DNA from: a virus
Lineage: Duplodnaviria > Heunggongvirae > Uroviricota > Caudoviricetes
Direction: 5' to 3' (one strand)
DNA length: 15,937 nt
IMG/VR virus record: IMGVR_UViG_2737471841_000003
Shown piece after piece: positions 3,744-15,756 of this stretch. Each line of letters opens with the position of its first letter. Within the stretch, counting starts at the first letter, position 1. Position numbers and translations under genes: made by a program. The notes under the pieces were generated by a model, which was given only the letters and a program-made list of their open reading frames with translations, was not told the DNA's origin and did not search any database.

Positions 3744-3905
3744 TCAGATAATGCCATAGTGTTTCAATGTTTCAATCAACCCATTACGTTTCAGGAAAGT
3801 TCGCACAGCCTCACGCGTAACTCCGGCTTTTCTGGCTATTTCCGAAAGGTTGATAAAATCAGTGTCTGTGTTTTCAATAACAACACGTTTGTTAATCAAT
3901 TTCAT
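3744..3905 (-). CDS. 53-aa helix-turn-helix DNA-binding protein (MKLINKRVVIENTDTDFINLSEIARKAGVTREAVRTFLKRNGLIETLKHYGII); absent from the ORF track (below its length cutoff)
   Basis: Translated codon by codon from the reverse strand: ATG at 3905-3903, SD AAGGAG (complement of 3914-3919) at 8-nt spacing, TGA at 3746-3744. The segment LSEIARKAGVTREAVRTFL is a typical HTH (excisionase/MerR-like or Nu1-like). Confidence 0.5.
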   Translation of the reverse strand: MKLINKRVVIENTDTDFINLSEIARKAGVTREAVRTFLKRNGLIETLKHYGII

Positions 3906-3940
3906 AAAATAAGCTCCTTGAAGAATACAGGTAAAAGGAT

Positions 3941-3978
3941 AATAAAAAAGGGAGGGAGGTTGTTAGCCTCTCCTCCCT
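3941..3978 (-). terminator. Intrinsic terminator or stabilising hairpin just downstream of the major capsid gene
   Basis: On the - strand: GGGAGGAGAGG, loop CTAACAA, CCTCCCTCCC, then CTTTTTTATT. It begins about 20 nt after the capsid stop at 3996. Phages commonly place a strong hairpin after the capsid gene. Confidence 0.5.
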
Positions 3979-3995
3979 TGTATTTAGCTATCAGA

Positions 3996-5024
3996 TTATG
4001 CCGCTTCGGTTAATTTCAGTTTAAAAATGAAATCTGGCCTACTATTGAGGTACGCGGTATGGGATTCACAGAAGATTTTACGCTGGGTGTTAGTCTGTTC
4101 TAACCAGTAAATTTCCCGTGCAGGTGCACCGCTCATTGCATAGCGTAAATTACGGGTTGCAGGTCCCACAATTTCACTCATGCAAGGCAGGAAAGTATTC
4201 TTGCGAACTGCCGGAACAGCGTAAGCATGACCTTCTTTCATGAATGAATCGTCACAGCTGATAATAGTGATAGCAATGCCATCTACCTGGAATACAGAAT
4301 AACCCGGCAGATGTTCACCATCAAATACCATGCTGGATTTAACAGTACCATTACCGAACATAATAGCGCGGCGAATGTCTTTATCATCGTAACGCAGGCG
4401 ATCATAAGTTGAGCTATCTACGAAGAGATAAACCCCACCAAATGAGTGAACTAAACCGCCCATTTGTTTTTTGACCAGTTTTACAATTCGTTCAAGCTCA
4501 CGGATGAGATCGCCACCCAGGTTTAACTCATCTTCGGACTGTTTAAACTTGCCACCCAGTTCCTCGACAATATCGATATCCCCACCTTTGAAATGAATCA
4601 CGTTATCAAAGAGAGCGCGCTGCATAGCTTTTTCTCTTGCAATTTCAAGGCGTTGTTTCATGCTCAACAGGTGTTCACCCGTCACATCGTCCAAGGTTTT
4701 CTCACGATTGGTGCCTGGTTTGCGGTGACCCTGGAAAGCGCTGGCGCTGATCTGAGATTCCAGTGCATAAGCAGGAACACGCAGCATTAAAGTTTGTGCT
4801 GTACCTGTTACGATGCTGCCATAATCACCCAGATCATAATCGCTTACAACTGGGGCAGCTGATTGGGTTGCTGCAATAACGTTATCGAACACGAAGGAGG
4901 TTGTACTGGTGTAAATTTTTTCATTAAACAAGCCCAGAGAAGTGATCAGCTGGTTTTCTAATGTTGGTTCTAGCATCACACATTCTGTGACATCTTTATA
5001 ATCGAATAATTGAAAGTCTGCCAT
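3996..5024 (-). CDS. Major capsid protein, lambda gpE family (342 aa)
   Basis: Size matches lambda E (341 aa). Recalled local similarity to lambda gpE: KNTFLP vs KNFLP, SGAPAREIYW vs GDPAREFTM, and a similar central hydrophobic block. ATG at 5024. It sits directly downstream of a small decoration-like gene, as in lambda D-E. Confidence 0.7.
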   Translation of the reverse strand: MADFQLFDYKDVTECVMLEPTLENQLITSLGLFNEKIYTSTTSFVFDNVIAATQSAAPVVSDYDLGDYGSIVTGTAQTLMLRVPAYALESQISASAFQGHRKPGTNREKTLDDVTGEHLLSMKQRLEIAREKAMQRALFDNVIHFKGGDIDIVEELGGKFKQSEDELNLGGDLIRELERIVKLVKKQMGGLVHSFGGVYLFVDSSTYDRLRYDDKDIRRAIMFGNGTVKSSMVFDGEHLPGYSVFQVDGIAITIISCDDSFMKEGHAYAVPAVRKNTFLPCMSEIVGPATRNLRYAMSGAPAREIYWLEQTNTQRKIFCESHTAYLNSRPDFIFKLKLTEAA

Positions 5025-5036
5025 TCCATCCCCCTA

Positions 5037-5360
5037 TTAAAGTGCTAATTTGACATGTTCGTTTAACAGGTGGGGAATAGCTTCCGGAGGATTAATTCCG
5101 AAAGAATTTAATACCACACCGATCCCGTGAACAATAACTAATTTGTCGCCTTTTTTAGCTGGTTCCAATACCACAAATAAAGCAGGCATCTCTTCTTCGT
5201 CAGCGTCGAATTTTGCCCCTTCTGCGGTAATAACATCGCCAGGGAATAAATCCTCAGTTAATGCCGTTTTCAGTTCCAGAGCTTTTTGTTCAAACTCGGG
5301 GTCCATGGAATAGGCGACCACATCTGCACGTGTTTTACGCGGCTTATCAGAAAATAACAT
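5037..5360 (-). CDS. Putative head decoration protein (107 aa), lambda gpD-like by position and size
   Basis: ATG at 5360 with GAGGT SD. Its stop is 12 nt upstream of the capsid gene start. 107 aa vs 110 aa for lambda D. Sequence similarity to gpD was not confidently recognised; the call is positional. Confidence 0.45.
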   Translation of the reverse strand: MLFSDKPRKTRADVVAYSMDPEFEQKALELKTALTEDLFPGDVITAEGAKFDADEEEMPALFVVLEPAKKGDKLVIVHGIGVVLNSFGINPPEAIPHLLNEHVKLAL

Positions 5361-5429
5361 CGTGTTACCTCATCTCTATCGCATTTATCAGATTTAATGT
5401 ATTAGAATCTCACCTCTGATACATTAATA

Positions 5430-5460
5430 AAGGCCACCCCTTCAGGTTGGGTAGCCTTGA
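5430..5460 (-). terminator. Terminator-like hairpin upstream of the head genes (- strand)
   Basis: On the - strand: GGCTACCC, loop AACCTGAA, GGGTGGCC (8-bp stem with one G.U), then TTTATTAATG. It lies about 70 nt upstream of the start at 5360. Confidence 0.3.
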
Positions 5461-5913
5461 TAATGGACCAGGTGCATAATCCAGAGCACGAAGATTATTC
5501 TCTGGTCATTCGTCTGTCGAGGTGATTTAAATGTGAAGTGAATCAGGCATTACTGCCTCAATCCATATAATAAAACCTCCCCCTAGCCCAGAGAGAGGCC
5601 TTATTATTTACTAGGATATATGAATGACTGATTTCAGTCTGGCAGATTCGCTAATAGCTCACCGCCTGGCACTTATTATCGCCTTCATTAGATCACCACA
5701 AATAATGTCGGCTATGGGAGAATGTAACCCGCTCCCAGTTGTTCACAGTACAACCAGACTTTTTACTGGAGAAAGTAATATCCACTCGTATAAATATTAC
5801 CTTCTTTAAAGGCCCTCGCTACGGTGGAAAGAAGAGGTAGCACAGAACAACCAGCAAAGACCTTTAAAGAAGTACGCCCAGCATCAAGGGGAAAATGATG
5901 AAAAAGCTCTGAG

Positions 5914-5942
5914 CTTCCGGGCGTTGACAAGTACAGGAGAAC
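5914..5942 (+). promoter_or_regulatory. Near-consensus sigma70 promoter (TTGACA, 17-bp spacer, TATTAT; TG immediately upstream of the -10)
   Basis: TTGACA at 5914-5919, TATTAT at 5937-5942, TG at 5935-5936. Confidence 0.45.
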
Positions 5943-6018
5943 ACTGTATTATCCAATAATCGGTGAGATGTAGGTGAGATAACTCGAAAGGTGTAACCAT
6001 GAAAGTATCTACATCATA

Positions 6019-6038
6019 GTATTATGATAACATAATAC
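6019..6038. promoter_or_regulatory. Inverted repeat (GTATTATG ATAA CATAATAC), candidate operator or RNA hairpin in the leader
   Basis: 8-bp arms separated by 4 bp, downstream of the 5914 promoter and followed 16 nt later by a T7 run (6055-6061). Confidence 0.3.
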
Positions 6039-6095
6039 TTGCCGTTTGTCAATCCTTTTTTCAAAGAAATTTAAAAAATTTTTCTCTCCGCCTCT

Positions 6096-6142
6096 TTTCT
6101 CGATCAAACAATTGAAAAAACTATTGACTGAGGCGTTAGAAT
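6096..6142 (+). promoter_or_regulatory. Promoter for the homing-endonuclease-like gene: 13-bp upstream box TTTCTCGATCAAA, then -35 TTGAAA and -10 TAGAAT (19-bp spacer)
   Basis: The box at 6096-6108 is identical to 14751-14763, which sits in the same position relative to the consensus promoter at 14768. -35 at 6112-6117, -10 at 6137-6142. The spacer is longer than optimal. Confidence 0.35.
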
Positions 6143-6182
6143 GTGATACGGTTCACCACAAATGGTAAGTGGAGGGTGCGAT

Positions 6183-7013
6183 ATGAAAGAGAGAAAACAG
6201 GCTTTAGCTAAAACAACAGAGCAGTTCATCGCTGAGGCAAGGAAAGTGCATGGTGATAAGTACGATTATTCGAAAGTTGAATACGTGAATATGCGCACTG
6301 AGGTTTGTATCATTTGCCCAATACATGGGGAGTTCACACAAAGACCAGAGAACCATCTTCGCGGTAACAGAGGAAAGGGGTGTGGTTGCCCTATTTGTAA
6401 ACCTTGGAGAAAACGCCTGACACGAGAAGAGTTCGAAAGGAGGGTAAAAGAGGTACACGGTGATAACCTGGATGTTTCACAGTTCGATTATAAAAACGTT
6501 CACACAGAGGGTATTGTTAAGTGCAACAGGTGCGGCATGACGTTCTCGATACAGGCACAAGCGATTATCCTTAGAAATTCTGATGGTAGTCTTCTAGGCG
6601 GTTGCCCTGTGTGTGACCATCTACACAGAGACGCGGAATATGTTTATTTGGCGCTGGATGATCCACACTTTCCGACGAGATTTAAGATCGGGGTAACAAG
6701 CAACCCACAGGACAGATTGATAACTTTGAAGTGTAGAACACCTTTCAGGGTGTTTATGAAATGTTGTTTCAAAGTAGGAAAAGTGAAGGCGCGGAGGCTG
6801 GAGTACTTCCTGCACAACTTCTACAACTTCTGCAATTGTGGTTATGAATCAAGAAAGGACTTTCAGGGTGCAACAGAGTGGTTTTATTACCTGCAAAGTA
6901 AAGTAGGGGTGAAGAGGGTGCTCAAGATGTTAGTAAAACTGGTAAACGCCAGGAGCTACAACCGCCACTACATAAAGCATAAAAAGCCAACGTTTAAACG
7001 CACTTTGTTTTAA
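6183..7013 (+). CDS. Homing-endonuclease-like protein: two N-terminal Zn-ribbon repeats plus a C-terminal T5orf172 (GIY-YIG-like) domain
   Basis: Start moved to ATG 6183 (GGAGGG SD at 6171-6176); the track start at 6162 lacks an SD. Two tandem repeats of HGDKYDYSKVEY...C.ICP.HGEF.Q.P..HL.G.GC..C, then YVYLALDDPHFPTRFKIGVTSNPQDRL...EYFLH...ATEWFYY, which matches the T5orf172 pattern as I remember it. Confidence 0.65.
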   Translation: MKERKQALAKTTEQFIAEARKVHGDKYDYSKVEYVNMRTEVCIICPIHGEFTQRPENHLRGNRGKGCGCPICKPWRKRLTREEFERRVKEVHGDNLDVSQFDYKNVHTEGIVKCNRCGMTFSIQAQAIILRNSDGSLLGGCPVCDHLHRDAEYVYLALDDPHFPTRFKIGVTSNPQDRLITLKCRTPFRVFMKCCFKVGKVKARRLEYFLHNFYNFCNCGYESRKDFQGATEWFYYLQSKVGVKRVLKMLVKLVNARSYNRHYIKHKKPTFKRTLF

Positions 7014-7064
7014 TGGTGGGCCAGGGATGGTTATTGACTCTCAATCATTATTTTAAAAAAGATG

Positions 7065-7093
7065 TTGACTACCACACGGTAAAAGTGTATAAA
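7065..7093 (+). promoter_or_regulatory. Near-consensus sigma70 promoter (TTGACT, 17-bp spacer, TATAAA)
   Basis: TTGACT at 7065-7070, TATAAA at 7088-7093, about 40 nt upstream of the 7131 ORF. Confidence 0.5.
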
Positions 7094-7130
7094 GGGCCTA
7101 AAGAAAGAGAAGTGGCAAAGGAGGTAAAAA

Positions 7131-7250
7131 ATGTTCAGGCTGATGGTGAATGTCCTGGCGATAATCTTCGGGTTAGTGCTCTTTCTGATGGCCTGGAGCG
7201 TTATCTTTGAAGTAGTGGATATAGTGATGGCGATGTTAATGATTAAATAA
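7131..7250 (+). CDS. 39-aa hydrophobic single-TM peptide (MFRLMVNVLAIIFGLVLFLMAWSVIFEVVDIVMAMLMIK); not in the ORF track
   Basis: ATG at 7131 preceded by AGGAGG (7119-7124) at 6-nt spacing and by the 7065 promoter. TAA at 7248-7250. The overlapping track ORF 7013..7210 in another frame has no SD and covers the promoter. Confidence 0.4.
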   Translation: MFRLMVNVLAIIFGLVLFLMAWSVIFEVVDIVMAMLMIK

Positions 7251-7266
7251 CGCAGGAGGCAAGATC

Positions 7267-7329
7267 ATGAAACATTGGGAAGTGATTGCACTGTTCATCA
7301 TAATGTTTGTGATGTGCATCGAGTTTTAA
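7267..7329 (+). CDS. 20-aa hydrophobic peptide (MKHWEVIALFIIMFVMCIEF); not in the ORF track
   Basis: ATG at 7267 preceded by AGGAGG (7254-7259) at 7-nt spacing. TAA at 7327-7329. It is very short, so this is tentative. Confidence 0.3.
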   Translation: MKHWEVIALFIIMFVMCIEF

Positions 7330-7364
7330 CATTAGTCGATCAATATATTGAAGAGGTGACTACT

Positions 7365-7916
7365 ATGAAAACTATCAAAACTATCGCCGCTGTGGTCCTG
7401 GCAATGTTTGTGGGCAATGCTAATGCCGCCCTGGTGATCACAGACCAAGACATTGAAGACCACATGGAGACAATGGAGGTTTACTACCAGGCTGAGGATA
7501 TTGATTGTGAGATCTGGAGCAAGATGTTCACGAAAGGGGTAATTGAAGGTAACGACAAGTTCAGGCACGGTATCCGTGTTCACAAAGACCTCACAATTGT
7601 TGCCATGAAAGCTAAATCGGAGTTCTACAACAAATACGCAGGGGAGGTTGTCAAATCTGGCGCAAGTAAAGGATACAGCAAGGAGAGAGTAGATCAGATT
7701 AGAGATGTTTACATCGGTGCTTACATCGGTGCGGCCGAGATGAAATCTCGCGTAAACAGCAAGTTCGGCAAAGCCGCTGATCTTAACTCTGTAGCTAAAA
7801 AGAGAGCAGAAGCCGATCATTGGTTCAATTTCTGTGTGAAAGTGAAAGAAGAATATCCGGTCGTATTGTTCAACGAGTGGTTAGCTATAGCACAGCTGGC
7901 AGAAGATGATTTTTAA
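7365..7916 (+). CDS. Secreted (periplasmic) protein with Sec signal peptide, 183 aa
   Basis: Start moved to ATG 7365 (GAGGTG SD at 7353-7358). N-terminus MKTIKTIAAVVLAMFVGNANA/AL has n-, h- and c-regions with a predicted cleavage after ANA. There is no Cys at +1, so it is not a lipoprotein. The track start at 7275 lacks an SD. Confidence 0.6.
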   Translation: MKTIKTIAAVVLAMFVGNANAALVITDQDIEDHMETMEVYYQAEDIDCEIWSKMFTKGVIEGNDKFRHGIRVHKDLTIVAMKAKSEFYNKYAGEVVKSGASKGYSKERVDQIRDVYIGAYIGAAEMKSRVNSKFGKAADLNSVAKKRAEADHWFNFCVKVKEEYPVVLFNEWLAIAQLAEDDF

Positions 7917-7946
7917 CCGGGGACGATCATCGACTCAAAAAAGTGA

Positions 7947-7975
7947 TTGACAACGGAGGTGAGATCCGGTATAGT
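7947..7975 (+). promoter_or_regulatory. Near-consensus sigma70 promoter (TTGACA, 17-bp spacer, TATAGT)
   Basis: TTGACA at 7947-7952, TATAGT at 7970-7975, upstream of the 8011 gene. Confidence 0.5.
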
Positions 7976-8010
7976 TCACCACATAGAGAAGAGATACGGA
8001 GGGCAGCAAG

Positions 8011-8391
8011 ATGAAAACTTTCAATTGGGTTAAACCACAGATGTTACGTCGCGCCAATAACCACGGTGAGGGTGTACGCCACCACAACGACGCACCTGCA
8101 CCGGACATGAAGAAGGCACGCAAAGTGATCAATCTTCGTCAGGACGCGGCTATCGCTCGCAACCTGAAAGCAGAAGCGAAAAACCGTAACCCGTTGGAGG
8201 CAATTCTTGTTGCCCTGGTCAATGACCATGCAGCTCATTTCCGTCATTTCAATGGCATCAACCAGTACCAGATGGCAGAAGCCAACCGTAAAGAAGAAGA
8301 GCGGATCCTGGCTGGACTGGTACACGTTGAGATTGAACCTGAACCGGAACCGGAGGAAATTCATTGGGACCTCTGGAAAATGGCAGCTTAG
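8011..8391 (+). CDS. Hypothetical early protein (126 aa)
   Basis: ATG at 8011 with GGAGGG SD at 7998-8003. Contains a PEPEPE stretch. Function unknown. Confidence 0.6.
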   Translation: MKTFNWVKPQMLRRANNHGEGVRHHNDAPAPDMKKARKVINLRQDAAIARNLKAEAKNRNPLEAILVALVNDHAAHFRHFNGINQYQMAEANRKEEERILAGLVHVEIEPEPEPEEIHWDLWKMAA

Positions 8392-8452
8392 TCCACAGAG
8401 TGGATTTCACAGAGTGAAACCTGATAACAGGCAGCTTGAGGAGGCTTGAATC

Positions 8453-8917
8453 ATGAAAATTTTCAGTATTGAACATTACGAAGACAAAATTGAAGAGCTG
8501 GAAAGACTGGCTGAGATTGCAGATTATCGCGCGGGGTACGCCGCTGGACTTGCGGAAGTTCGGGAAAAAATACTTAAAAAATTCCACAGCTTGTACTATG
8601 TCCTGGCGGTTGCTGAGCAAGAACAAGATGAGGAGCTGTACGAGTACACGTCGTGCCGTATCCTGGAAATGGCGGGTGTGTACGGCATAATCAAGGCGGG
8701 AGAGGTGATCTCAGACGAAGAGATTGCGAAGAGACTTCGTAAACGCATCGAAAACGCATACTTTGAAGCGATCTACTATACGAAAAAAAGCACGGAGCTG
8801 TATAAACGCATAACTGCGGCGACGAAAGTTGTCACTCAGCTACAGAAAGTAAAAATCTTCAAACTGAAAGCGGCGTTGGCTATCGGTAAAATGTTTTTCC
8901 CACATCGTTTCAATTGA
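8453..8917 (+). CDS. Hypothetical early protein (154 aa)
   Basis: ATG at 8453 with GAGGAGG SD. Function unknown. Confidence 0.65.
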   Translation: MKIFSIEHYEDKIEELERLAEIADYRAGYAAGLAEVREKILKKFHSLYYVLAVAEQEQDEELYEYTSCRILEMAGVYGIIKAGEVISDEEIAKRLRKRIENAYFEAIYYTKKSTELYKRITAATKVVTQLQKVKIFKLKAALAIGKMFFPHRFN

Positions 8918-8945
8918 TTAAATAATAAACAGAGGAGACTGTAAA

Positions 8946-9314
8946 ATGAGTTACGAAAACTGCTGTTTCTGTGTGGAAGATGTGCCGCCAGTCATTCTGG
9001 AGCGTCACGGTGTGAAAACGTATCTGCCGATGATTCTGATGTTCGAGCATTTCCTCGATCATGGTGATGACGGTTTTTATGTCGGTTATAGTGAGGACGA
9101 TTTCCCTCCTGACTTGCTGAAAGAGTTGGAAGAAAAAGGCATCATTGAAGTATTTGATCAAACTGACGTGGATAATGGTGTGTGGGTAAGGGTTAAAAAA
9201 GAGATTCACATTGAACGTCTGCAACTTGCGGCAGAAGTCCAGGGCCTTGAGATTCTCGACATGAGCGACTACCTCAAACAACTGGACGAAGCATACAAGG
9301 CGCACGATTTATAG
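8946..9314 (+). CDS. Hypothetical acidic early protein (122 aa)
   Basis: ATG at 8946 with AGAGGAG SD. Tightly spaced after the preceding gene. D/E-rich. Confidence 0.65.
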   Translation: MSYENCCFCVEDVPPVILERHGVKTYLPMILMFEHFLDHGDDGFYVGYSEDDFPPDLLKELEEKGIIEVFDQTDVDNGVWVRVKKEIHIERLQLAAEVQGLEILDMSDYLKQLDEAYKAHDL

Positions 9315-9327
9315 GGGAGACACACAG

Positions 9328-9642
9328 ATGAATAAAGACGTGATTGAACTGCTGGAACAACTGAACAAGGCCGCTGAGTATATCCTGGCCGATGTGAAGG
9401 TCCTGGATGGTCACTTGTTGCTGGCGAGCAAGTCAGCCACACAGGAAGGAAGGGACAGGGCTGTCGAGCTATACGTTCAGGATGCTGCACATCTTATAAA
9501 CAAATGGTTGCCTGATGTGGGTGTCGAGGTGACAAACTACGCAGAAGCAACGGCGGCGCATATGGTGCTGATGCATCTGGCAATTGATAGTTACCGTAGT
9601 AACATGTTAGCAATGCTGGACTTCATGAAGGCTAAAAATTAA
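9328..9642 (+). CDS. Hypothetical early protein (104 aa)
   Basis: ATG at 9328 with GGGGAG SD, 14 nt after the preceding stop. Confidence 0.6.
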   Translation: MNKDVIELLEQLNKAAEYILADVKVLDGHLLLASKSATQEGRDRAVELYVQDAAHLINKWLPDVGVEVTNYAEATAAHMVLMHLAIDSYRSNMLAMLDFMKAKN

Positions 9643-9704
9643 TCGTACTCGATCAATAGTTCAATTTTACTTATGAATTGTGGAGAGCATAAGAGGTTCC
9701 AACA

Positions 9705-10226
9705 ATGAAAACTGAACTCAAACATGAAATTCTAAACGCTTTTAACAACCGTATCGAGGCCATAGTGGATGGTCAACCTGGCGGGATGTTCTTTGTGGAG
9801 GAAGCCATAGAGCTGGCTAAAGCGGAGGAAGCAGTAGAGAGAATACTCAACATCCCACACAGTGATCAATGTCTGGTAGATAGGTATCTATACGGCTTCA
9901 TGCGACTGGTCCGGCATTATTGCGAGGTGCCTGTGGACCATCATTTTATCAGTATGATCTACGCCGATGCTTCTGACTTCTTCTACAGGCTAGATCACAG
10001 AATAGACGAAATGATTGTTGTGTTACTGGCGGGATCTGATGACGAAAGGTTGTTAGACGTAGAACCTGATGAACTGGTGAAAAAACTTATTGAGCGTGTT
10101 TATCGGGAAATGGAGGCAGACGTAGAGGCAGCGGGTGAAGATGGAAGAATGCGGCAGAAGCTGGAGGCCGCGTATAAGGCCAGGCCGAAGGATGATGATG
10201 ACGATACGGAAGGAATCCCATTCTGA
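9705..10226 (+). CDS. Acidic early protein (173 aa) with an SSB-like C-terminal tail (...KDDDDDTEGIPF)
   Basis: ATG at 9705 with AAGAGG SD. Strongly acidic overall. The C-terminal codons were checked directly: GAC GAT ACG GAA GGA ATC CCA TTC TGA. Confidence 0.65.
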   Translation: MKTELKHEILNAFNNRIEAIVDGQPGGMFFVEEAIELAKAEEAVERILNIPHSDQCLVDRYLYGFMRLVRHYCEVPVDHHFISMIYADASDFFYRLDHRIDEMIVVLLAGSDDERLLDVEPDELVKKLIERVYREMEADVEAAGEDGRMRQKLEAAYKARPKDDDDDTEGIPF

Positions 10227-10277
10227 GCTATTGGGGCCGTCACTGGCCCCGCTTACCAACTAATCGGAGAGCATAAG

Positions 10278-10553
10278 ATGAAACTCAAACTTATCGAAAG
10301 TCAGCTGAACATGTTCTTTAAGATGGCAAGTGTGATCATTGTGGACGGTGAACAATTCGCGGGTCCAGTGCCACACAGTAGCATCGTTTTAGATATCAAC
10401 AGAGAGGCCCTTAAATGCGTTGTGGAGGCCGTATTTAATCAGGATGTAAAAGTGTATAGGCTTATGGAGTTTGAGCTACAGGAGCGCGATTTACGCATCA
10501 TAGAGCGACATTTGAAGGCTGAGCAAGCCGCAGAAGAGTTGAACCTGGATTAA
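10278..10553 (+). CDS. Hypothetical early protein (91 aa)
   Basis: ATG at 10278 with GGAGAG SD. Confidence 0.6.
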   Translation: MKLKLIESQLNMFFKMASVIIVDGEQFAGPVPHSSIVLDINREALKCVVEAVFNQDVKVYRLMEFELQERDLRIIERHLKAEQAAEELNLD

Positions 10554-10662
10554 GGGGGTGTATACCCCGAACATTGTGAGAGGTGTGAGATGGCTAAACA
10601 AATACTTTCAATTGTTCCACTGTGGAAACTGAATCATAAATTCGTAAAAAAATGGTAAACCA

Positions 10663-11013
10663 GTGCTGTTTACATACCTTGATGCGCTGGTCTTCGGTTA
10701 CATAGCACGAGCTAACTATGGGGGCAAGTGGTTCAACTTCGTAATGAAGAATGCAATCTACGACCTCTATACAAGCGAGAAGGAGATAACGCACAGCGTT
10801 GAAAAACTGGTTATGTTAAGACTTATCAAAATAATGCCGGGTGAAAGTTTGCCTAACTGCCACATGGTGGCGCAAGTCACTCATAAGGAATTGGAAGACA
10901 CGATCAATAGGTATATCGAGCGTGAAAGAATGTCTTGCGCGATGATCGACCTTGATGAAGAGAGGAGGAAACAATTCCAGGGTAATGATGAATGGGAAGA
11001 TTGTCCTTTTTAA
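10663..11013 (+). CDS. Hypothetical protein (116 aa from a GTG start; start uncertain), C-terminus ...NDEWEDCPF
   Basis: The ORF is open from 10648. The first start codon is GTG at 10663 with no clear SD; an alternative ATG at 10744 has a weak SD. It is preceded by a 22-codon uORF (10590-10658, SD GAGAGGTG) that ends in an A7 run. Confidence 0.45.
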   Translation: MLFTYLDALVFGYIARANYGGKWFNFVMKNAIYDLYTSEKEITHSVEKLVMLRLIKIMPGESLPNCHMVAQVTHKELEDTINRYIERERMSCAMIDLDEERRKQFQGNDEWEDCPF

Positions 11014-11030
11014 TGTAGGGGGGTGGCAAA

Positions 11031-12008
11031 ATGACTACAGAAGTGATGATCCAGATTTTCGAATCTGATTTAAATAATGATGGTAACTTAGTCCCGGTTG
11101 TTAACGCCCGTGAGTTTTACGAAGCGCTTGGGATGCGAAAAGATTATGGAAATTGGATCAGGTGGCATCTTCGGAAATTTGAAAAAAATCGGGACTTTAT
11201 TACTTTTATCGATAAGTCGGGAGAACATCCGCGTCATAACTATTTTATCACTTTGGACACTGCAAAGCACATATGCAGGGTGAGCCAACGCCAGGAAGGT
11301 GAGCAGTTGCTACAGTATTTAATTAAAGTTGAAAAAAGATACCGTTTAGTACTGGACCCACAACCACAGATTCCTGTTTACACACAGTCACAGATTCCTG
11401 TTTACACACAGTCACAGATTCCTGTTTACACACAGACGGAACCTGAACCGTTGCCAGGAACACCGGAACATTTTGCCCGTGCATTTACGGAGGCTTACCA
11501 ACAGATATACGGGGCAACAGATCAGCAGCCAGTCATTGAGCACAATACGGAACCTGTGGTTCCTTGTTGGGGAGCTGGGTCTAATCAGAGCCTCGAGGTC
11601 CAGGATGTGCAGGAAGTACGACCGCCAGCACCTGTGCTGGGGTATTACAATCCTTGCCCGGACAACAAAATCAACATGAAAGGCTTAAAAGAATACCTGA
11701 GCAATGAACGCCTGATCAAGTACCTCATTAAAAAATTCAACATTGAAAATGAGATTTATGATTATGGTTACATAAATGTGAAAGGGAAAGCTGAGTCGGA
11801 GATTGTGTACGATAAACGTAAAACGCTGGCGATCTTACATGCCGCTTACGCTTTGAGTACTAGAGTAAACGCCACACAGAGAGAGTTTATGGGGATAGTA
11901 TTCACGATGTACAGGGTGTTAAGAGACACACATTATGATAAGGACATGTACGATACAGCTTACACTCTTCTTGAAGAGGATATAAACAAATTGTATAAAA
12001 TTGATTGA
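11031..12008 (+). CDS. Antirepressor-like protein with N-terminal AntA-type domain (325 aa)
   Basis: ATG at 11031 with a G-rich SD. The N-terminus (VVNAREFYEALGMRKDYGNWIRWHLRKFEKNRDFITF...YFITLDTAKHI) matches the AntA/AntB antirepressor N-terminal pattern as I remember it. Contains a triplicated QIPVYTQS repeat. Confidence 0.65.
   Translation: MTTEVMIQIFESDLNNDGNLVPVVNAREFYEALGMRKDYGNWIRWHLRKFEKNRDFITFIDKSGEHPRHNYFITLDTAKHICRVSQRQEGEQLLQYLIKVEKRYRLVLDPQPQIPVYTQSQIPVYTQSQIPVYTQTEPEPLPGTPEHFARAFTEAYQQIYGATDQQPVIEHNTEPVVPCWGAGSNQSLEVQDVQEVRPPAPVLGYYNPCPDNKINMKGLKEYLSNERLIKYLIKKFNIENEIYDYGYINVKGKAESEIVYDKRKTLAILHAAYALSTRVNATQREFMGIVFTMYRVLRDTHYDKDMYDTAYTLLEEDINKLYKID
11367..11438 (+). repeat. 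Three tandem 24-bp direct repeats (CAGATTCCTGTTTACACACAGTCA) inside the antirepressor-like gene
   Basis: Units at 11367-11390, 11391-11414 and 11415-11438; the third differs in its last bases. In frame, encoding QIPVYTQS x3. Confidence 0.9.
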
Positions 12009-12086
12009 GCATCTATACTCGATCACAACTCAACAATAAAGACGGAGAGTCGAGAGCATGACTCTCCTCAACCCCGGAGGCCCAAC

Positions 12087-12362
12087 ATGTATTACTACGA
12101 TTGCAAAGACCCGATTCTGGCTGAACGTAACCGCCTGGCTAATGAGATCGCCCAACAGGCAAAAGAGAAAAAAGCCCAACAGCGTATGGAGCTTGGAAAA
12201 GAGATTTACAGACTCCACACAGACGGCTACACAATGGAATGTATAGCCAAAAAGCTGGGAATGTCTGAACCAACAGCCTACAGACTGCAACGGGCATATC
12301 TGAAAGCTAACCCGCACCTCAAAGTGTTCTCGGGGCGTGTTGCGGCACGGGGTCGTAGTTAA
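12087..12362 (+). CDS. Small HTH DNA-binding protein (91 aa), resolvase/sigma-region-4-like HTH
   Basis: ATG at 12087 with GGAGG SD (12076-12080). The segment GYTMECIAKKLGMSEPTAYRLQRAY is HTH-like. Its stop lies 10 nt before the first operator-like palindrome. Confidence 0.6.
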   Translation: MYYYDCKDPILAERNRLANEIAQQAKEKKAQQRMELGKEIYRLHTDGYTMECIAKKLGMSEPTAYRLQRAYLKANPHLKVFSGRVAARGRS

Positions 12363-12371
12363 CACACACTA

Positions 12372-12408
12372 GGGACAAAATGTCCTACCTACCCGGGACA
12401 AAATGTCC
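12372..12408. promoter_or_regulatory. Two copies of a 14-bp palindromic operator-like site, GGGACAAAATGTCC, 23 bp centre to centre
   Basis: Exact copies at 12372-12385 and 12395-12408. Each is a dyad (GGACA-N3-TGTCC). Confidence 0.5.
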
Positions 12409-12409
12409 A

Positions 12410-12419
12410 CCCCCCCCCC
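12410..12419. repeat. Homopolymeric C10 tract
   Basis: Ten consecutive C at 12410-12419, directly after the second operator copy. Confidence 0.9.
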
Positions 12420-12449
12420 GGCAATATGTGATTCCCGGAAGACACATGT

Positions 12450-12486
12450 TTGTACAAATTGTAGTCACTGATTGTACAGATTGTAG
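12450..12486. repeat. Two direct repeats TTGTACA(A/G)ATTGTAG spaced 22 bp
   Basis: 12450-12464 and 12472-12486. Each has a TGTACA palindromic core. Confidence 0.6.
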
Positions 12487-12490
12487 CACT

Positions 12491-12573
12491 ATACCGGTTT
12501 TCCGATAGAGCTATACCGGATTTCCGGTAGAGGTATACCGCTTTTCCGGTATAGGTATACCGGATTTCCGGTA
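12491..12573. repeat. Iteron array: four 17-bp dyad-symmetric sites (ATACCGG-N-TTTCCGGTA) at exactly 22-bp spacing; putative replication origin or partition/regulator binding array
   Basis: Sites at 12491-12507, 12513-12529, 12535-12551 and 12557-12573. Arms TACCGGA and TCCGGTA are reverse complements. Followed by an AT-rich stretch (12574-12622), the same layout as the lambda origin (four dyad iterons plus an AT-rich region). Confidence 0.6.
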
Positions 12574-12622
12574 ACTATTAGATCAATCTATTACATCAAG
12601 AAAAAAGATCACTTATTATATT

Positions 12623-12645
12623 AAGGGCCTTGCCCTTTTTGTTGT
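12623..12645 (+). terminator. Terminator-like hairpin (AAGGGC, loop CTT, GCCCTT, then TTTGTTG)
   Basis: 6-bp GC-rich stem with a 3-nt loop, then a T-run, at the end of the AT-rich region. It would terminate read-through from the 12087 gene across the iterons. Confidence 0.35.
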
Positions 12646-13845
12646 GGGATTGATTGGTGGGATTGATCTTACTGATAGTATAATACTCCACCAATCAACC
12701 CTAAGTTGTGGGAGAGTACGGAGCAGACTGCGACTACAGAGCAGGCTGAGAAGTACTCAATGGGTGTAAGGGATTAAGGGACCCACACACATTTCCACAC
12801 ACAGAGTAAAGCCAGAGGCTTTATGAAGTGTAAGAGTAATGCCTAAAGAGTCGAAGCACACTTTAGGCTATATTGTGTGGGAGGTATCTGTACATAGTAC
12901 AGAGTACTCCCCATTATGTGGGGGCAATCCTGCCCGTAAGGGCAGCTCATGTGATTCGCAGCCGTAAGCTGAACTGCGACGAAGAAGGCTGCAAAGGTTC
13001 TCGGCCCGGTTACAATTACGCAACAATTTTATAATCTATCGTTAACCTATACCACTATCACAATTTCTATAGTTGAGTCCTACTATCCCCTACACCATAA
13101 AATCAATTTTAAGCCACACTCAGCCTACGGCTTCACGGTAAAACGTGTTTTAACCCACATAATGGCCCCTGTAGTGAGCTAAATGGTATACACCGCTATA
13201 ATTGGGTTACTTATGAGATAACCTCGTTAGAATCGATTCTAGAGCGTTTTAGAGCTTGAAATCCATCCTGCAAACTGCAAGATGATGATTCTATCGGGGA
13301 AGAATTTTTTTCCTTCCCGTAAGTCGTACCGTAGAGCAGATTTGCTTTACGAGCTTTCTCACACCTCAGGCCTCTGGCCTTCATGGAGTATCGGAGATAC
13401 GACTCACCGCATATACTCTGTTTTCAGTGCTACCCTGATCGCATCCGACCCTTTTCAGAGGCACTTTTAACCGCATTCTGGCACGCTACAACAGCAAGAA
13501 ATAGGCTGATTCTACTGATTTTACCTTACAATACAGGTACATAGCAGAAGGGCAGGAATATACTGTGAGAATGGTTGCTAGACCGGGCCTTCTTCTCTCT
13601 GTGTGTGCATTCTGAAACCGTTATGTAGTCGAGTATATAACGACTGGTCAGACCAGTGCAGGGCTGAAAATGATGATCGGTCACCACAATTATGGGCAAA
13701 TTACTGTACATTCATACAGTAGTTATACATAAAGAATATGCATCGATTGCTCTTTAGGCACAGATGTTATAATGTAACAATTAATTTAGTTTACCTCGGT
13801 AATCACTGTGTGGACATGTCACGCAACTAAACTAAATCCGAAGAG

Positions 13846-13854
13846 TTATCCACA
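13846..13854 (+). promoter_or_regulatory. Consensus DnaA box TTATCCACA
   Basis: Exact 9-mer match to the R-type DnaA box, single copy. Nearby are an 8-bp palindrome GACATGTC (13812-13819) and a 10-bp inverted repeat, ATTTAGTTTA (13783-13792) with TAAACTAAAT (13827-13836). Confidence 0.3.
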
Positions 13855-14687
13855 GATTGGGGGTAAATCATCAACATAGTCTGTAGCCTCTGACAGAGAG
13901 CAAAAAGAAAGGCCTTTTATGTGATCAATATCACGTTTCTGGGGTAGTTCTGGAGGCTTAGGTGCGGGGAAGTAGTGCGTACTGACACCAGAGGCCGCAT
14001 AAAACAAGGGGATTTAACATAATGGATCTTGTATACACCACACCTCACCACGTTGAAATCTGATCTTACTTTGAGGCTATCTGCCAACAGAATCCGCGTA
14101 CATGCACCATAACCTGTATGTGGGATGCAATAATAAAGGCCCTGGCGGCCCACAGGCCGCATGAATACTGGGCTTGTCATAGATATGGGCCTGTATCGCT
14201 ATGTAGATGCGGGATGACCTGTAAGGGTGTGGCAGGTGGCAGGGGCTGGAGGGCACGGTACAGCACAGCTAATGGGTGAGGCCCCAGATATTTGAGAATC
14301 ACTCTCACCTGAGAATAATTATCAGTAACTCCTGCCTAGTACCACCCCTGTAGGTAAGGTTGATCATTGCCCACATTGCTGGTATACTTTATCTGTGGGA
14401 AAGTAACGCCGTTACTTCCGCGAACGCTGTGCGTGATGTGTGGGAGAATGTGCCTGCGTAATAAAAAAATTGAAAATTACTCATCTGTCAACATTTCAAT
14501 GACGTATGTCAATCATTTATGCTATGTGTTTACTTTATAATCAATCACTTACGAATTTAATGAAATAAATGCATTTAAATAGGGTGAAACTCAAATCTAA
14601 CCCCTGAAACTGTGTTGATAAAGGGGCGTGAAGCCCGGCGTAGGTAACTCGTTACCCGCCAGTGTTATTGATAATTCTCATTTACGT

Positions 14688-14716
14688 TTGACAATGCAAT
14701 CCCAATGGTGTATAAT
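14688..14716 (+). promoter_or_regulatory. Perfect consensus sigma70 promoter (TTGACA, 17-bp spacer, TATAAT)
   Basis: TTGACA at 14688-14693 and TATAAT at 14711-14716, in an AT-rich upstream context. Confidence 0.6.
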
Positions 14717-15240: not shown

Positions 15241-15756
15241 ATGAGAGCAGTTTTTGATCAGCTGCCGTGGTGGCTTGATTTTCTCGAAGAACTGGACGGA
15301 AAGAAATTTAAACTGACAAAAGGTGAAGCGAGAGCATTTGCTTGTATTCTTACGTATGCCGCGACATGTGGTAAGATTTTCCCGTCACTCCACACAATAG
15401 CCCTTCATATGGGTTTACGGAGTGAAAAACGAGCGCCGACACAGGCGCATAAAGCGATCAAAGGCCTGGAGGAAAAAGGCCTTATACGTGTTAGCCGTCG
15501 CGCTGGGTGTGGAAACCATTATGAACTAGTTTACACAGCAGATCAACTCTTTGAGATGACAAAGCAACAGAATCCAGACTTGTTCAAAGGCTATGAAGAC
15601 ACGTTCGGAGAAGAGGATAGGGAGAGAGAACAGGCAGGGGATAAACCGAAGAAACATGATACAAAACAGGGGGTTACGTGTCAACATGACAACGGTCAAC
15701 CGGATGATATTCACATAGAAGCGTGTGATCTGGATGCTACTGACATACCATTTTAA
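15241..15756 (+). CDS. HTH_36-type winged-helix DNA-binding protein (phage replication/regulatory type), 171 aa, with SSB-like C-terminus (...DLDATDIPF)
   Basis: ATG at 15241 with AAGGTGG SD. The segment LTKGEARAFACILTYAATCGKIFPSLHTIALHMGLRSEKRAPTQAHKAIKGLEEKGLIRVSRR matches the HTH_36 pattern seen in the N-terminal domains of phage replication proteins. The terminal codons GAC ATA CCA TTT TAA were checked. Confidence 0.7.
   Translation: MRAVFDQLPWWLDFLEELDGKKFKLTKGEARAFACILTYAATCGKIFPSLHTIALHMGLRSEKRAPTQAHKAIKGLEEKGLIRVSRRAGCGNHYELVYTADQLFEMTKQQNPDLFKGYEDTFGEEDREREQAGDKPKKHDTKQGVTCQHDNGQPDDIHIEACDLDATDIPF

What the first reader, a model, noticed from the sequence alone, without database searches (positions are those of the whole stretch)
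8011..10553. Run of six small, mostly acidic early genes with strong RBSs: candidate host-takeover or anti-defence cargo
Six consecutive ORFs of 91-173 aa with good SDs and short gaps lie downstream of a consensus promoter (7947). I recognise none of them and several are D/E-rich. Such early clusters in phages often contain anti-restriction or anti-CRISPR-type inhibitors and other host-shutoff factors.
Basis: inference. Interest (0 to 1): 0.45.

Follow-up and report, generated by a model that had tools for sequence, protein, structure and literature searches.

The report
Phage-element operon with SSB-tail mimic

Summary
Six ORFs lie at the stated coordinates, each with a Shine-Dalgarno site and short gaps, behind a TTGACA-17-TATAGT promoter at 7947 that four relatives conserve. 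All six evolve under purifying selection (dN/dS 0.10-0.61). None matches Pfam, PHROGs, NCBIfam, PADLOC or PDB sequences.

They are not uniform "cargo". ORF2, ORF5 and ORF6 (mostly also ORF4) are a syntenic core of a rare lineage. ORF1 and ORF3 are inserted cassettes. ORF3 is a very acidic predicted winged-helix protein that also occurs at other positions in other phages.

The one mechanistic clue is ORF5 (9705-10226). It is an acidic, probably helical protein whose disordered C-terminus (…DDDDDTEGIPF; …DDDP[LM]DFDS[GS]IPF in relatives) reproduces the E. coli SSB tip (MDFDDDIPF). Two other proteins of the element carry similar tails. I infer docking onto SSB-interacting host proteins, as recruiter or decoy. 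This favours host takeover over classical anti-restriction. Nothing was tested experimentally.

Context: the window is a closed 15.9-kb circle with only some virion genes, possibly a satellite.

The parts
7947..7975 (+). Sigma-70-type promoter (TTGACA, 17 nt, TATAGT) of the operon
   Evidence: Scan result, 11 of 12. Both hexamers are identical in W, L004, L005 and L003 (the L003 spacer differs). In L005 and L003 it directly precedes the ORF2 homologue.
8011..8391 (+). ORF1, 126 aa, pI 8.1. Accessory cassette inserted between the promoter and ORF2. Has a His-rich basic N-terminal motif and a PEPEPE acidic linker.
   Evidence: Full-length copies only in W, L004 and one 98% identical cluster, P0030. 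Its first 5 codons (MKTFN) equal the start of ORF2 in L005. Only the N-terminal ~35 aa are shared with P0031 and P0032, which sit in other contexts. dN/dS 0.18. No family hit.
8453..8917 (+). ORF2, 154 aa, pI 8.5. Conserved core gene of unknown function.
   Evidence: 63-88% identical homologues at the same position in L002-L005, and also in L020. dN/dS 0.19-0.38. Only sub-threshold Pfam noise (MvaI_BcnI, 20.2 bits against a cut-off of 25). No PDB profile hit.
8946..9314 (+). ORF3, 122 aa, pI 4.3, net charge -18. Mobile accessory gene. Predicted winged-helix domain plus two C-terminal helices.
9328..9642 (+). ORF4, 104 aa, pI 5.2. Mostly conserved gene of unknown function.
   Evidence: 58-98% identical in L002-L005, absent from L020. 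dN/dS 0.21-0.56. No family or PDB hit.
9705..10226 (+). ORF5, 173 aa, pI 4.6. Acidic, probably helical core plus a variable linker plus a C-terminal SSB-tip mimic.
   Evidence: 13 relatives among 5.8 billion proteins, and only its own family among 1.84 billion representatives. In alignment A1, I171 and F173 are invariant, P172 is kept in 12 of 13, and the linker is rich in indels. AF2 gives an all-helical model with residues 159-173 below pLDDT 50, but only one of five models reaches 70.6. No fold match. dN/dS 0.30-0.61.
10179..10223 (+). Codons for the ORF5 tail ARPKDDDDDTEGIPF (SSB C-terminal tip mimic), followed directly by TGA
   Evidence: Relatives end in DDDP[LM]DFDS(G/S)IPF, against PPMDFDDDIPF in E. 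coli SSB.
10233..10250 (+). GC-rich hairpin GGGGCC-GTCACT-GGCCCC between ORF5 and ORF6, with no T run
   Evidence: Read directly from the sequence. Not reported as a terminator by the scan. Function not tested.
10278..10553 (+). ORF6, 91 aa, pI 5.0. The most conserved gene of the run; function unknown.
   Evidence: 86-94% identical in L002, L003 and L005, and also present in L020. dN/dS 0.10-0.22. No family or PDB hit.
10590..11013 (+). Next gene of the same strand run. It is split in this window by a 1-nt frameshift in an A7 run (10590-10658 and 10663-11013). The intact 147-aa homologue is in L020. The tail is ...NDEWEDCPF.
   Evidence: The C-terminal [DE]DCPF is kept in L020 (EDEDCPF).
11031..12008 (+). 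AntA-type antirepressor-like gene in the same strand run
   Evidence: Pfam AntA, 57.6 bits against a cut-off of 27. PHROG anti-repressor Ant, E = 5e-20.
12087..12362 (+). Small HTH protein (91 aa), conserved at 91-93% in relatives. Last gene before the iterons.
   Evidence: Pfam HTH_23, 27.4 bits against a cut-off of 24.6. Conservation.
12489..12573 (+). Iteron-like array of 22-bp direct repeats (3.9 copies)
12623..12647 (+). First terminator-like hairpin with a T run downstream of the promoter on the + strand; probable operon end
   Evidence: AAGGGCCTTGCCCTT followed by TTTGTTGTGG. No other + strand terminator-like site lies between 7975 and 12623.
15241..15756 (+). Replication-initiator-like winged-helix protein (171 aa) ending ...DLDATDIPF: a second SSB-tip-like tail on the element
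   Evidence: PHROG replication initiation / O-like families, E = 3e-5 to 2e-3. Tail. The homologues in L014 and L020 end DIPFE and DIPFD.

Best explanation
The six ORFs form the promoter-proximal part of one operon, which probably runs from P7947 to the terminator-like site at about 12.63 kb and contains nine genes. The operon sits on a 15.9-kb circular, phage-derived element of E. coli and is a mosaic. ORF2, ORF5 and ORF6 (usually with ORF4) are a lineage-conserved core. ORF1 and ORF3 are cassettes dropped into it.

The core gene ORF5 is an acidic, probably helical protein with a flexible C-terminal tail that copies the C-terminal tip of host SSB: acidic residues followed by Ile-Pro-Phe-COOH. 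My inference is that this tail docks into the pocket that host genome-maintenance proteins use to bind SSB (for example ExoI, RecQ, RecO, PriA, the chi subunit of Pol III, DnaG, RecG and RadD). ORF5 would then either tether such a protein to whatever its N-terminal domain binds, or compete with SSB for it.

The element's replication-initiator-like protein and a third protein carry similar tails. The most likely common logic is therefore that the element wires its own proteins into the host SSB interaction hub in order to replicate and to redirect or blunt host recombination and repair.

ORF3, a mobile and highly acidic winged-helix protein, and ORF1 are the only genes that behave like exchangeable inhibitor cargo; their targets are unknown.

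Shown: gene reality, operon layout, the split into core and cassettes, the sequence and conservation of the tail, and the circularity of the element. Inferred: binding to SSB partners, recruitment versus inhibition, and every functional role.
For: Genes, ribosome-binding sites and promoter. The promoter hexamers are identical in four elements. Purifying selection acts on all six. Core versus cassette.

ORF5 tail. I171 and F173 are invariant and P172 is kept in 12 of 13 homologues, while the preceding linker varies in sequence and length. Divergent homologues (45-58% identical) read DDDP[LM]DFDS(G/S)IPF, against PPMDFDDDIPF in E. coli SSB. The tail is predicted to be disordered. The core is acidic without the tail (pI 4.7), so it is unlikely to bind nucleic acid.

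Three of the 19 genes on the element end in an acidic stretch followed by [IC]PF. Apart from the deliberately targeted ORFs, only 1 of 2,199 ORFs in 1.13 Mb of unrelated viral contigs ends in [ILVMC]PF, and none of those has an acidic run before it. The three tail-bearing proteins share no other similarity. Two mutually unalignable versions of the initiator-like protein, at the same position in different relatives, both carry a tail, DIPF or EWDDNVPF.

Literature. The IPF motif is required for SSB function, and DIPF or IPF is the part seen bound to ExoI and RecO (PMC10143822). Many SSB-interacting proteins dock on the SSB-Ct (PMC10164576, PMC10238739, PMC3632105, PMC3045619, PMC7913777). Small molecules that block SSB-partner contacts stop replication and recombination (PMC3594151).

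Precedent in the data. Exact DFDDDIPF tails occur on IMG/VR ORFs that lack detectable similarity to the SSB OB domain, including an SF2 helicase and a DUF6511 protein.
Against: There is no experiment and no docking model. The W copy of ORF5 has only the distal IPF plus a D5 run (TEGIPF), not the proximal DFD segment. One homologue has ISF. The initiator-like homologues in L014 and L020 carry one extra acidic residue after the Phe (DIPFE, DIPFD), which should disturb a canonical contact to the terminal carboxylate. That weakens the claim for this protein. The ORF5 structure model is weak: only one of five models reaches pLDDT 70. ORF2, ORF4 and ORF6 give no functional clue at all. Operon continuity beyond ORF6 rests only on the absence of a predicted terminator. 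Whether the element is a satellite, a plasmid-like phage remnant or a deletion derivative is open, because one relative lies inside a 60-kb contig.
Confidence: 0.5

Rival explanations
1. The whole run is anti-defence or host-shutoff cargo: each small protein directly inhibits a defence system such as R-M, CRISPR, CBASS or a retron.
For: The genes are small, promoter-proximal and of unknown family, and two are very acidic. ORF1 and ORF3 are inserted cassettes, and ORF3 moves between unrelated phage contexts. ORF5 evolves fastest of the six (dN/dS up to 0.61).
Against: ORF2, ORF5 and ORF6 are syntenic in every relative examined, and ORF6 has dN/dS of 0.10-0.22. That pattern fits core functions better than exchangeable counter-defence genes. 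There are no hits to any annotated anti-defence family in Pfam or PHROGs. ORF3 is predicted to be a winged helix, not an Ocr/ArdA-type DNA mimic.
Confidence: 0.15
2. The acidic Phe-terminated tails are not aimed at host SSB partners. They aim at a phage replisome, either the element's own or a helper's. This would resemble T7, where the C-terminal acidic tails of gp2.5 and of the gp4 helicase-primase both dock on the T7 DNA polymerase.
For: Several unrelated proteins of one element share the tail, as in T7. The role of the T7 SSB C-tail in binding T7 polymerase and helicase-primase is stated in PMC13402713; the gp4 tail is from my own knowledge. The tails EWEDCPF and EWDDNVPF are less SSB-like than that of ORF5. 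The element lacks most replication genes and may depend on a helper.
Against: The ORF5 tail in divergent relatives matches the host SSB tip nearly residue for residue (P[LM]DFD..IPF). Such precision is expected if host SSB-binding pockets are the target. No polymerase or helicase is encoded on the element.
Confidence: 0.15
3. The conserved genes (ORF2, ORF4, ORF5, ORF6) are element-specific regulators or helper-manipulation factors of a satellite-like element, for example controlling helper induction, late genes, capsid or tail size, or packaging. On this view the SSB-like tail is incidental to their main role.
For: The element is a 15.9-kb circle with only a major capsid protein, a 107-aa protein the size of lambda gpD, a Dit-like protein and a tape-measure protein, and with no terminase, portal or lysis hits. 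The same strand run contains an AntA antirepressor-like gene; P4 epsilon, which derepresses its helper, is a precedent from my own knowledge. The four genes are conserved together with the structural genes.
Against: No homology or structural clue links any of the four to known satellite functions. Strict conservation of the tail against a variable linker argues that the tail is selected. Helper dependence is untested.
Confidence: 0.15
4. Some or all of the six ORFs are not genes but chance reading frames in a gene-poor early region.
For: There is no database family and no annotation beyond 'hypothetical protein'.
Against: All six have homologues with dN/dS below 1, and the divergent pairs keep the reading frame at dS up to about 1.4. 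Ribosome-binding sites and spacing are regular. The structure models for ORF3 are consistent across all five models.
Confidence: 0.01

Closest known systems
C-terminal tip of bacterial SSB (SSB-Ct; E. coli ...PPMDFDDDIPF)
   Same: ORF5 and its relatives end in an acidic, disordered tail that finishes with Ile-Pro-Phe-COOH. Divergent members also keep the proximal P-[LM]-D-F-D segment. The IPF motif is the essential, structurally resolved part of SSB-Ct bound to ExoI and RecO (PMC10143822).
   Different: There is no OB fold and no Pfam SSB hit. The core is acidic (pI 4.7) and predicted helical, so ORF5 is not an SSB. The copy in this window lacks the DFD segment (DDDDDTEGIPF).
Acidic C-terminal tails of phage T7 gp2.5 (SSB) and gp4 (helicase-primase)
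   Same: Several different proteins of one genetic element carry an acidic tail ending in Phe, which acts as a shared docking module for a common partner. The gp2.5 tail role is stated in PMC13402713; the gp4 tail is from my own knowledge.
   Different: T7 tails target the phage's own polymerase, and their sequences differ (...DGDF). Here the tail copies the host SSB tip, and the element encodes no polymerase.
Phage ORFs in IMG/VR that end in an exact DFDDDIPF tail but lack detectable similarity to the SSB OB domain (for example an SF2 ResIII/Helicase_C helicase and a DUF6511 protein)
   Same: A host-type SSB tip is appended to a protein that is not a canonical SSB.
   Different: They are unrelated in sequence to ORF5; an hmmsearch with the ORF5 core found none of them. 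Some of the 60 'non-SSB' ORFs are probably atypical SSBs that phmmer missed. I found no paper in the held library that describes this class.
Small acidic anti-restriction DNA mimics (Ocr, ArdA) and other early anti-defence proteins
   Same: ORF3 and ORF5 are small, strongly acidic and promoter-proximal. ORF3 is exchanged between phages.
   Different: There is no sequence match in Pfam or PHROGs. ORF3 is predicted to be a winged helix plus two helices, and ORF5 a helical protein with a peptide-mimic tail. Neither resembles an elongated DNA-mimic fold.
Winged-helix DNA-binding domains (Fur, MarR, ArsR type)
   Different: With a net charge of -18, DNA binding is unlikely. Sequence identity is 8-17%, and no HTH family reaches even E = 1 in Pfam.

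Membership tests
SSB C-terminal tip motif (SSB-Ct) | Phe as the very last residue, with a free alpha-carboxylate | tested here: met
   ORF5 ends ...GIPF followed by TGA. F173 is invariant in all 13 homologues.
SSB C-terminal tip motif (SSB-Ct) | Ile-Pro immediately before the terminal Phe (the IPF motif required for SSB function; PMC10143822) | tested here: met
   I171 is invariant and P172 is kept in 12 of 13 homologues; one has ISF.
SSB C-terminal tip motif (SSB-Ct) | A run of acidic residues, and the proximal DFD(D) segment, upstream of IPF | tested here: met
   This window has DDDDDTEG before IPF, so the acidic run is present but the DFD segment is absent. Seven of 13 homologues have DDDP[LM]DFD (or VVPDDFD) before IPF.
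SSB C-terminal tip motif (SSB-Ct) | The tip sits on an intrinsically disordered, poorly conserved linker | tested here: met
   pLDDT is below 50 for residues 159-173, in a low-confidence model. The linker columns are rich in indels and not conserved.
SSB C-terminal tip motif (SSB-Ct) | Binds the SSB-Ct pocket of SSB-interacting proteins | not testable with these tools
   Needs peptide competition or ITC, pull-downs, or complex prediction.
SSB family (OB fold, Pfam PF00436) | N-terminal OB-fold ssDNA-binding domain | tested here: not met
   No Pfam, PHROG or NCBIfam hit. The predicted structure is all-helical. The core pI is 4.7.
Known anti-defence families (Ocr, ArdA/ArdB, Acr and similar, as represented in Pfam and PHROGs) | Sequence match to a described family | tested here: not met
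   None of the six ORFs has a hit at E <= 0.001 in Pfam or PHROGs, apart from a sub-threshold MvaI_BcnI match for ORF2. A dedicated anti-defence library was not available.
Known anti-defence families | Inhibition of a defence system in vivo | not testable with these tools
   Requires phage-rescue assays.
Winged-helix fold (ORF3) | H1-(strand)-H2-H3 followed by a beta-hairpin wing, superposable on wHTH domains | tested here: inconclusive
Phage satellite (context of the operon) | Small genome lacking essential virion or packaging genes, so that a helper is needed | tested here: inconclusive
   The 15.9-kb circle has hits only to a major capsid protein, a Dit-like protein and a tape-measure protein. 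No terminase, portal, sheath, tube or lysis family was found among the ORFs scanned, which covered everything of 65 aa or more. Helper dependence was not tested, and one relative lies inside a 60-kb contig.

The most novel reading that the evidence does not exclude
ORF5, together with the element's initiator-like protein and the 116/147-aa protein, represents a natural class of 'SSB-tail adaptors or decoys'. These would be non-SSB proteins of mobile elements that carry a copy of the host SSB C-terminal tip and use it to hijack or jam the host SSB interaction hub. They would be carried by a previously undescribed family of 14-16-kb circular, satellite-like elements that encode their own capsid, tape-measure and Dit proteins.
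Probability: 0.35. Interest if true: 0.75.

Novelty: new variant of a known kind. Interest (0 to 1): 0.55.

Why it matters
The SSB C-terminal tip is the single docking peptide through which more than a dozen bacterial replication, recombination and repair enzymes are recruited. Small molecules that block it are bactericidal (PMC3594151).

A mobile-element protein that presents the same peptide on a non-DNA-binding scaffold would be a compact, genetically encoded way to recruit or inhibit that whole hub. It would be a ready-made tool for probing the hub.

The IMG/VR survey suggests that such tails on proteins other than canonical SSBs are common in phages. I found no paper in the held library that describes them.

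Separately, the carrier element could extend the known range of phage satellites. It is a closed 15.9-kb circle with a partial set of virion genes and an antirepressor-like gene.

For the original question, the practical result is a ranking. ORF3 and ORF1 are the candidates worth testing as exchangeable inhibitors. ORF5 should be tested against SSB partners. ORF2, ORF4 and ORF6 are core genes of the element.

Tried and rejected
Nucleotide searches
- Megablast of 7900-10700 against phage, plasmid and complete E. coli collections found nothing.
- tblastn of ORF5, ORF3 and the major capsid protein against 50,697 phage records found nothing. Only the Dit-like protein finds relatives, at about 49% identity in rV5-like phages.

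Family and structure searches
- Pfam, PHROGs, NCBIfam and PADLOC gave nothing credible for any of the six ORFs.
- The ORF2 match to MvaI_BcnI (20.2 bits against a cut-off of 25) was rejected as noise from a helical region.
- PDB profile searches for ORF2, ORF4, ORF5 and ORF6 gave no hit below E = 0.19.
- Foldseek of the ORF5 model against PDB had a best E of 1.5. Foldseek of the ORF3 model against BFVD had a best E of 0.04.
- The profile search over 1.84 billion representatives returned only ORF5's own family, plus P0029, a 969-aa tandem-repeat artefact.

Collection scans
- IMG/VR with the capsid protein, ORF6 and ORF2, GTDB genomes with the capsid alignment, and JGI metagenomes with the capsid alignment found no relatives.

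Ideas dropped
- ORF5 as an unconventional SSB: rejected because the core is acidic and helical.
- A ribbon-helix-helix domain in ORF1: this was an impression from the sequence with no Pfam support, so it is dropped.
- I first read 10663-11013 as truncated by an in-frame stop. Re-reading shows a 1-nt frameshift in an A7 run.

RNA and other checks
- No tRNA and no Rfam family in the window or in 12300-15000.
- I saw no shared operator-like motif on reading the sequence around the six strongest promoter-like sites.

Literature
- Searches for natural SSB-Ct mimics on non-SSB proteins found none in the held library. This is not proof of absence.
- Retron-Eco8 activation by T7 SSB does not need the C-tail (PMC13402713), so there is no link to that defence system.

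Caveat
Its DFDD plus DIPF tip is confirmed by PMC10143822 and PMC5872125.


Full report
**1. Observation**

The six ORFs are present at exactly the coordinates given, all on the + strand: 8011-8391, 8453-8917, 8946-9314, 9328-9642, 9705-10226 and 10278-10553. The gene calls stored with the public record agree.

Each ATG has a purine-rich Shine-Dalgarno sequence about 7-9 nt upstream, and the gaps are 13-62 nt. The promoter-like site TTGACA-17 nt-TATAGT at 7947-7975 scores 11 of 12. A consensus scan alone proves little, because the region holds 26 sites against 19.6 +/- 5.1 in shuffles. The decisive point is that both hexamers are identical in four related elements (the spacer differs in L003), in front of the homologous operon.

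"Mostly acidic" is an overstatement. The pI values are 8.1, 8.5, 4.3, 5.2, 4.6 and 5.0, and only ORF3 (net charge -18) and ORF5 (-19) are strongly acidic.

The ORFs are genes. All six have homologues. Pairwise dN/dS against relatives is 0.10-0.22 for ORF6, 0.19-0.38 for ORF2, 0.21-0.56 for ORF4, 0.30-0.61 for ORF5, 0.18 for ORF1 and 0.31 for ORF3.

**2. What the window is**

The window is the entire contig JUDJ01000049.1 of an E. coli assembly, GCA_000798295.1.

Its two ends are adjacent. Joining end to start gives a sequence that aligns without a break to a relative, L004 (93.9% identity over 526 nt). An independently assembled contig from a public read set (L011, 15,926 bp) is a 100% identical circular permutation that runs straight across the junction. 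The sequence is therefore a closed 15.9-kb circle, or a tandem concatemer.

Its recognisable genes are:
- a tape-measure protein (118-2256);
- a Dit-like protein (2901-3728, about 49% identical to rV5-like phages);
- a lambda-E-type major capsid protein (3996-5024), preceded by a 107-aa gene;
- a T5orf172/DUF723 homing-endonuclease-like gene (6183-7013);
- an AntA antirepressor-like gene (11031-12008);
- a small HTH protein (12087-12362);
- a replication-initiator-like winged-helix protein (15241-15756).

No terminase, portal, sheath, tube or lysis family was found.

Relatives occur as contigs of 13.8-14.9 kb (L003, L004, L020). The ends of L020 are consistent with a circle.

One relative lies at the end of a 60-kb metagenomic contig. 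There, about 46 kb of other genes separate the HTH gene from the non-coding region that follows it directly in the window.

I cannot decide whether the small circles are satellites, plasmid-like remnants or deletion derivatives. The lineage is rare. It is absent from 50,697 phage records, IMG/VR, JGI metagenomes and the GTDB species genomes at the sensitivity used.

**3. Operon architecture and comparison**

On the + strand there is no terminator-like site between 7975 and 12623. The six ORFs are therefore probably the first two thirds of a nine-gene unit. That unit continues through a frameshifted gene (10590-11013), AntA and the HTH gene. It ends after a 22-bp iteron array (12489-12573).

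Across the relatives L002-L005 and L020, the genes divide as follows:
- ORF2, ORF5, ORF6 and the HTH gene are always present and in the same order.
- ORF4 is present in four of the five.
- Full-length ORF1 occurs only in W, L004 and one 98% identical cluster.
- ORF3 occurs only in W and L004, plus a truncated copy in L020.

In L005 and L003 the conserved promoter and ribosome-binding site lead straight into ORF2. In W and L004, ORF1 begins with the same five codons (MKTFN) and then diverges. This is the signature of a cassette inserted at the 5' end of ORF2.

**4. The individual genes**

None of the six has a credible match in Pfam, PHROGs, NCBIfam or PADLOC, nor in PDB sequences for the four searched there (ORF2, ORF4, ORF5, ORF6).

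- *ORF1.* It shares only an N-terminal motif of about 35 aa (W.KPQM.RR.NNHGEGVRHHxDxPAPDMKK) with two other proteins. One is in L020. The other is in a different phage-like context that includes a lambda-Kil-like gene and an integrase.
- *ORF2, ORF4 and ORF6.* These give no clue beyond their conservation. ORF6 is the most constrained.

**5. ORF5 and the SSB-tip tail**

The ORF5 family has 13 clusters among 5.8 billion proteins. A profile search of 1.84 billion representatives found nothing outside it except a tandem-repeat artefact.

The alignment shows three parts:
- a conserved N-terminal region of about 65 residues;
- a variable, indel-rich middle and linker;
- a C-terminus in which I171 and F173 are invariant and P172 is kept in 12 of 13 members.

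The window copy ends KDDDDDTEGIPF. Relatives that are only 45-58% identical end DDDP[LM]DFDS(G/S)IPF. E. coli SSB ends PPMDFDDDIPF. That tip consists of a proximal DFDD segment and a distal DIPF segment. The IPF motif is required for function and is the part seen bound to ExoI and RecO (PMC10143822, PMC5872125).

The tail is predicted to be disordered, though the model is weak: only one of five models reaches pLDDT 70.6. Without the tail the protein still has pI 4.7, and it has no OB fold. It is therefore not an SSB.

Two further proteins of the element end similarly: the initiator-like protein (…DLDATDIPF) and the 116-aa protein (…NDEWEDCPF; its intact 147-aa homologue in L020 ends EDEDCPF). 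In L002, L003 and L004 the initiator position is occupied by a protein that does not align with the W version. It again hits replication-initiator PHROGs weakly, and it ends EWDDNVPF. The tail-bearing proteins share nothing else.

As a background, I counted C-termini in 1.13 Mb of unrelated viral contigs. Apart from the ORFs deliberately targeted, only 1 of 2,199 ORFs of at least 80 aa ends in [ILVMC]PF, and none with an acidic run before it. Three of 19 genes on this element is far beyond that rate.

One caveat applies. The initiator-like homologues in L014 and L020 have one extra acidic residue after the Phe (DIPFE, DIPFD). This does not fit a canonical contact to the terminal carboxylate.

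**6. A wider pattern**

I scanned IMG/VR for DNA encoding the exact tail DFDDDIPF followed by a stop.

Of 118 ORFs ending in that tail, 60 show no phmmer similarity to the E. coli SSB OB domain. Some are probably atypical SSBs. Others clearly are not, for example a 577-aa SF2 helicase (ResIII plus Helicase_C) and a DUF6511 protein.

SSB tips on proteins other than canonical SSBs therefore seem common in phages. Five literature searches in the held library found no description of natural SSB-Ct mimics on non-SSB proteins.

**7. Mechanism and rivals**

*Best explanation (confidence 0.5).* The run is a mosaic operon of a small circular phage-derived element. Its conserved gene ORF5 presents a host SSB tip on an acidic, non-DNA-binding scaffold. 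It thereby docks onto SSB-interacting proteins, either to recruit them or to compete with SSB. The initiator-like protein and a third protein use the same device.

Supporting knowledge:
- Many genome-maintenance enzymes dock on the SSB-Ct (PMC10164576, PMC10238739, PMC3632105, PMC3045619, PMC7913777).
- Blocking these contacts stops replication and recombination (PMC3594151).
- Portability of phage RecT recombinases is tied to the host SSB C-terminal tail, as studied in 10.1101/2020.04.14.041095, which I saw only in the listing.

*Rivals.*
- The whole run is anti-defence cargo (0.15). Synteny and constraint of ORF2, ORF5 and ORF6 argue against this.
- The tails address a phage replisome, as in T7 (0.15). 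The near-identity to the host tip argues against this.
- The core genes are satellite-specific regulators or helper-manipulation factors and the tail is incidental (0.15).
- The ORFs are not genes (0.01).

ORF3 and ORF1 are the only members that behave as exchangeable cargo. They are the best candidates for inhibitors of a defence system or of a helper or host regulator, but nothing identifies a target.

**8. Verdict**

The families are new. The tail device is a new variant of a known principle, in which SSB or T7-type acidic tails act as docking peptides.

Interest is moderate to good (0.55). There is a specific, cheaply testable prediction for ORF5, a possibly general class of SSB-tip mimics, and an unusual carrier element. 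All functional statements are inferences from sequence.

Noticed in passing
window 1-15937 (whole contig); junction 15937/1; L011, L020, L010: The contig is a closed 15.9-kb circle, and an independent assembly spans the junction. It carries only a partial set of virion genes: tape-measure, Dit-like and major capsid proteins plus a 107-aa protein. It also has an initiator-like gene, an AntA-like gene and an HTH gene. Relatives are contigs of 13.8-14.9 kb, but one sits in a 60-kb contig with about 46 kb of extra genes. It may be a new kind of phage satellite or a deletion derivative.
   Followed up: partly
window 15849-15937 joined to 1-105: A gene of about 72 aa (an acidic N-terminal EEVEEEEE stretch, then a basic part) spans the contig junction just upstream of the tape-measure gene. 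It is called as 72 aa in the permuted contig L011.
   Followed up: partly
window 12372-12417 and 12489-12573: Iteron-like direct repeats lie immediately downstream of the small HTH gene: two 23-bp copies and about four 22-bp copies (CTATACCGGATTTCCGGTAGAG). This is a candidate origin, partition site or packaging-recognition site.
   Followed up: partly
window 12640-14968: A stretch of about 2.3 kb has no credible ORF. It is conserved in patches with relatives (73-96% in blocks). It contains two near-perfect sigma-70 promoters (14688, 12 of 12; 14768, 11 of 12) facing the 79-aa gene and the initiator-like gene. No Rfam family and no tRNA were found. Unknown non-coding RNAs or regulatory DNA are possible.
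   Followed up: partly
window 15241-15756: The replication-initiator-like winged-helix protein ends in DIPF, like SSB. Its homologues in L014 and L020 end DIPFE and DIPFD. In L002, L003 and L004 a protein that does not align with it occupies the same position and ends EWDDNVPF.
   Followed up: partly
window 10590-11013: One gene is split into 10590-10658 and 10663-11013 by a 1-nt frameshift inside an A7 run, relative to the intact 147-aa homologue in L020 (11083-11526). This could be a pseudogene, a sequencing error or a frameshift site. Its tail EDCPF is conserved.
   Followed up: partly
window 11365-11435: A perfect 24-nt tandem repeat (3 copies) inside the AntA-like gene encodes QIPVYTQS three times, between the AntA domain and the C-terminal part.
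   Followed up: no
window 6183-7013; L002 7693-8259; L002 10893-11081; L005 9611-9820: A T5orf172/DUF723 homing-endonuclease-like gene occupies the site where relatives carry a small serine recombinase (resolvase). Short DUF723 fragments replace AntA in L002 and L005. A DUF723 gene also lies next to the ORF3 homologue in L006 and L007. Together these suggest gene turnover linked to homing endonucleases.
   Followed up: no
window 7365-7916: A 183-aa protein has an N-terminal stretch that looks like a signal peptide (MKTIKTIAAVVLAMFVGNANA). It is only 33% identical to its counterpart in L002 and is replaced by small membrane-protein genes in L004. This is a variable, probably exported product just upstream of the promoter.
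   Followed up: no
IMG/VR loci L021-L140 (for example L055 match at 11283-11309, L092 match at 3782-3808): Of 118 viral ORFs that end in the exact SSB tip DFDDDIPF, 60 have no phmmer similarity to the E. coli SSB OB domain. They include an SF2 helicase and a DUF6511 protein. SSB tips on proteins other than canonical SSBs may be widespread.
   Followed up: partly
L008 14474-14749: In an unrelated phage-like contig that carries an ORF3 homologue, a 91-aa protein ends in NEDDDMDGSPF. This is another acidic tail ending in Pro-Phe.
   Followed up: no
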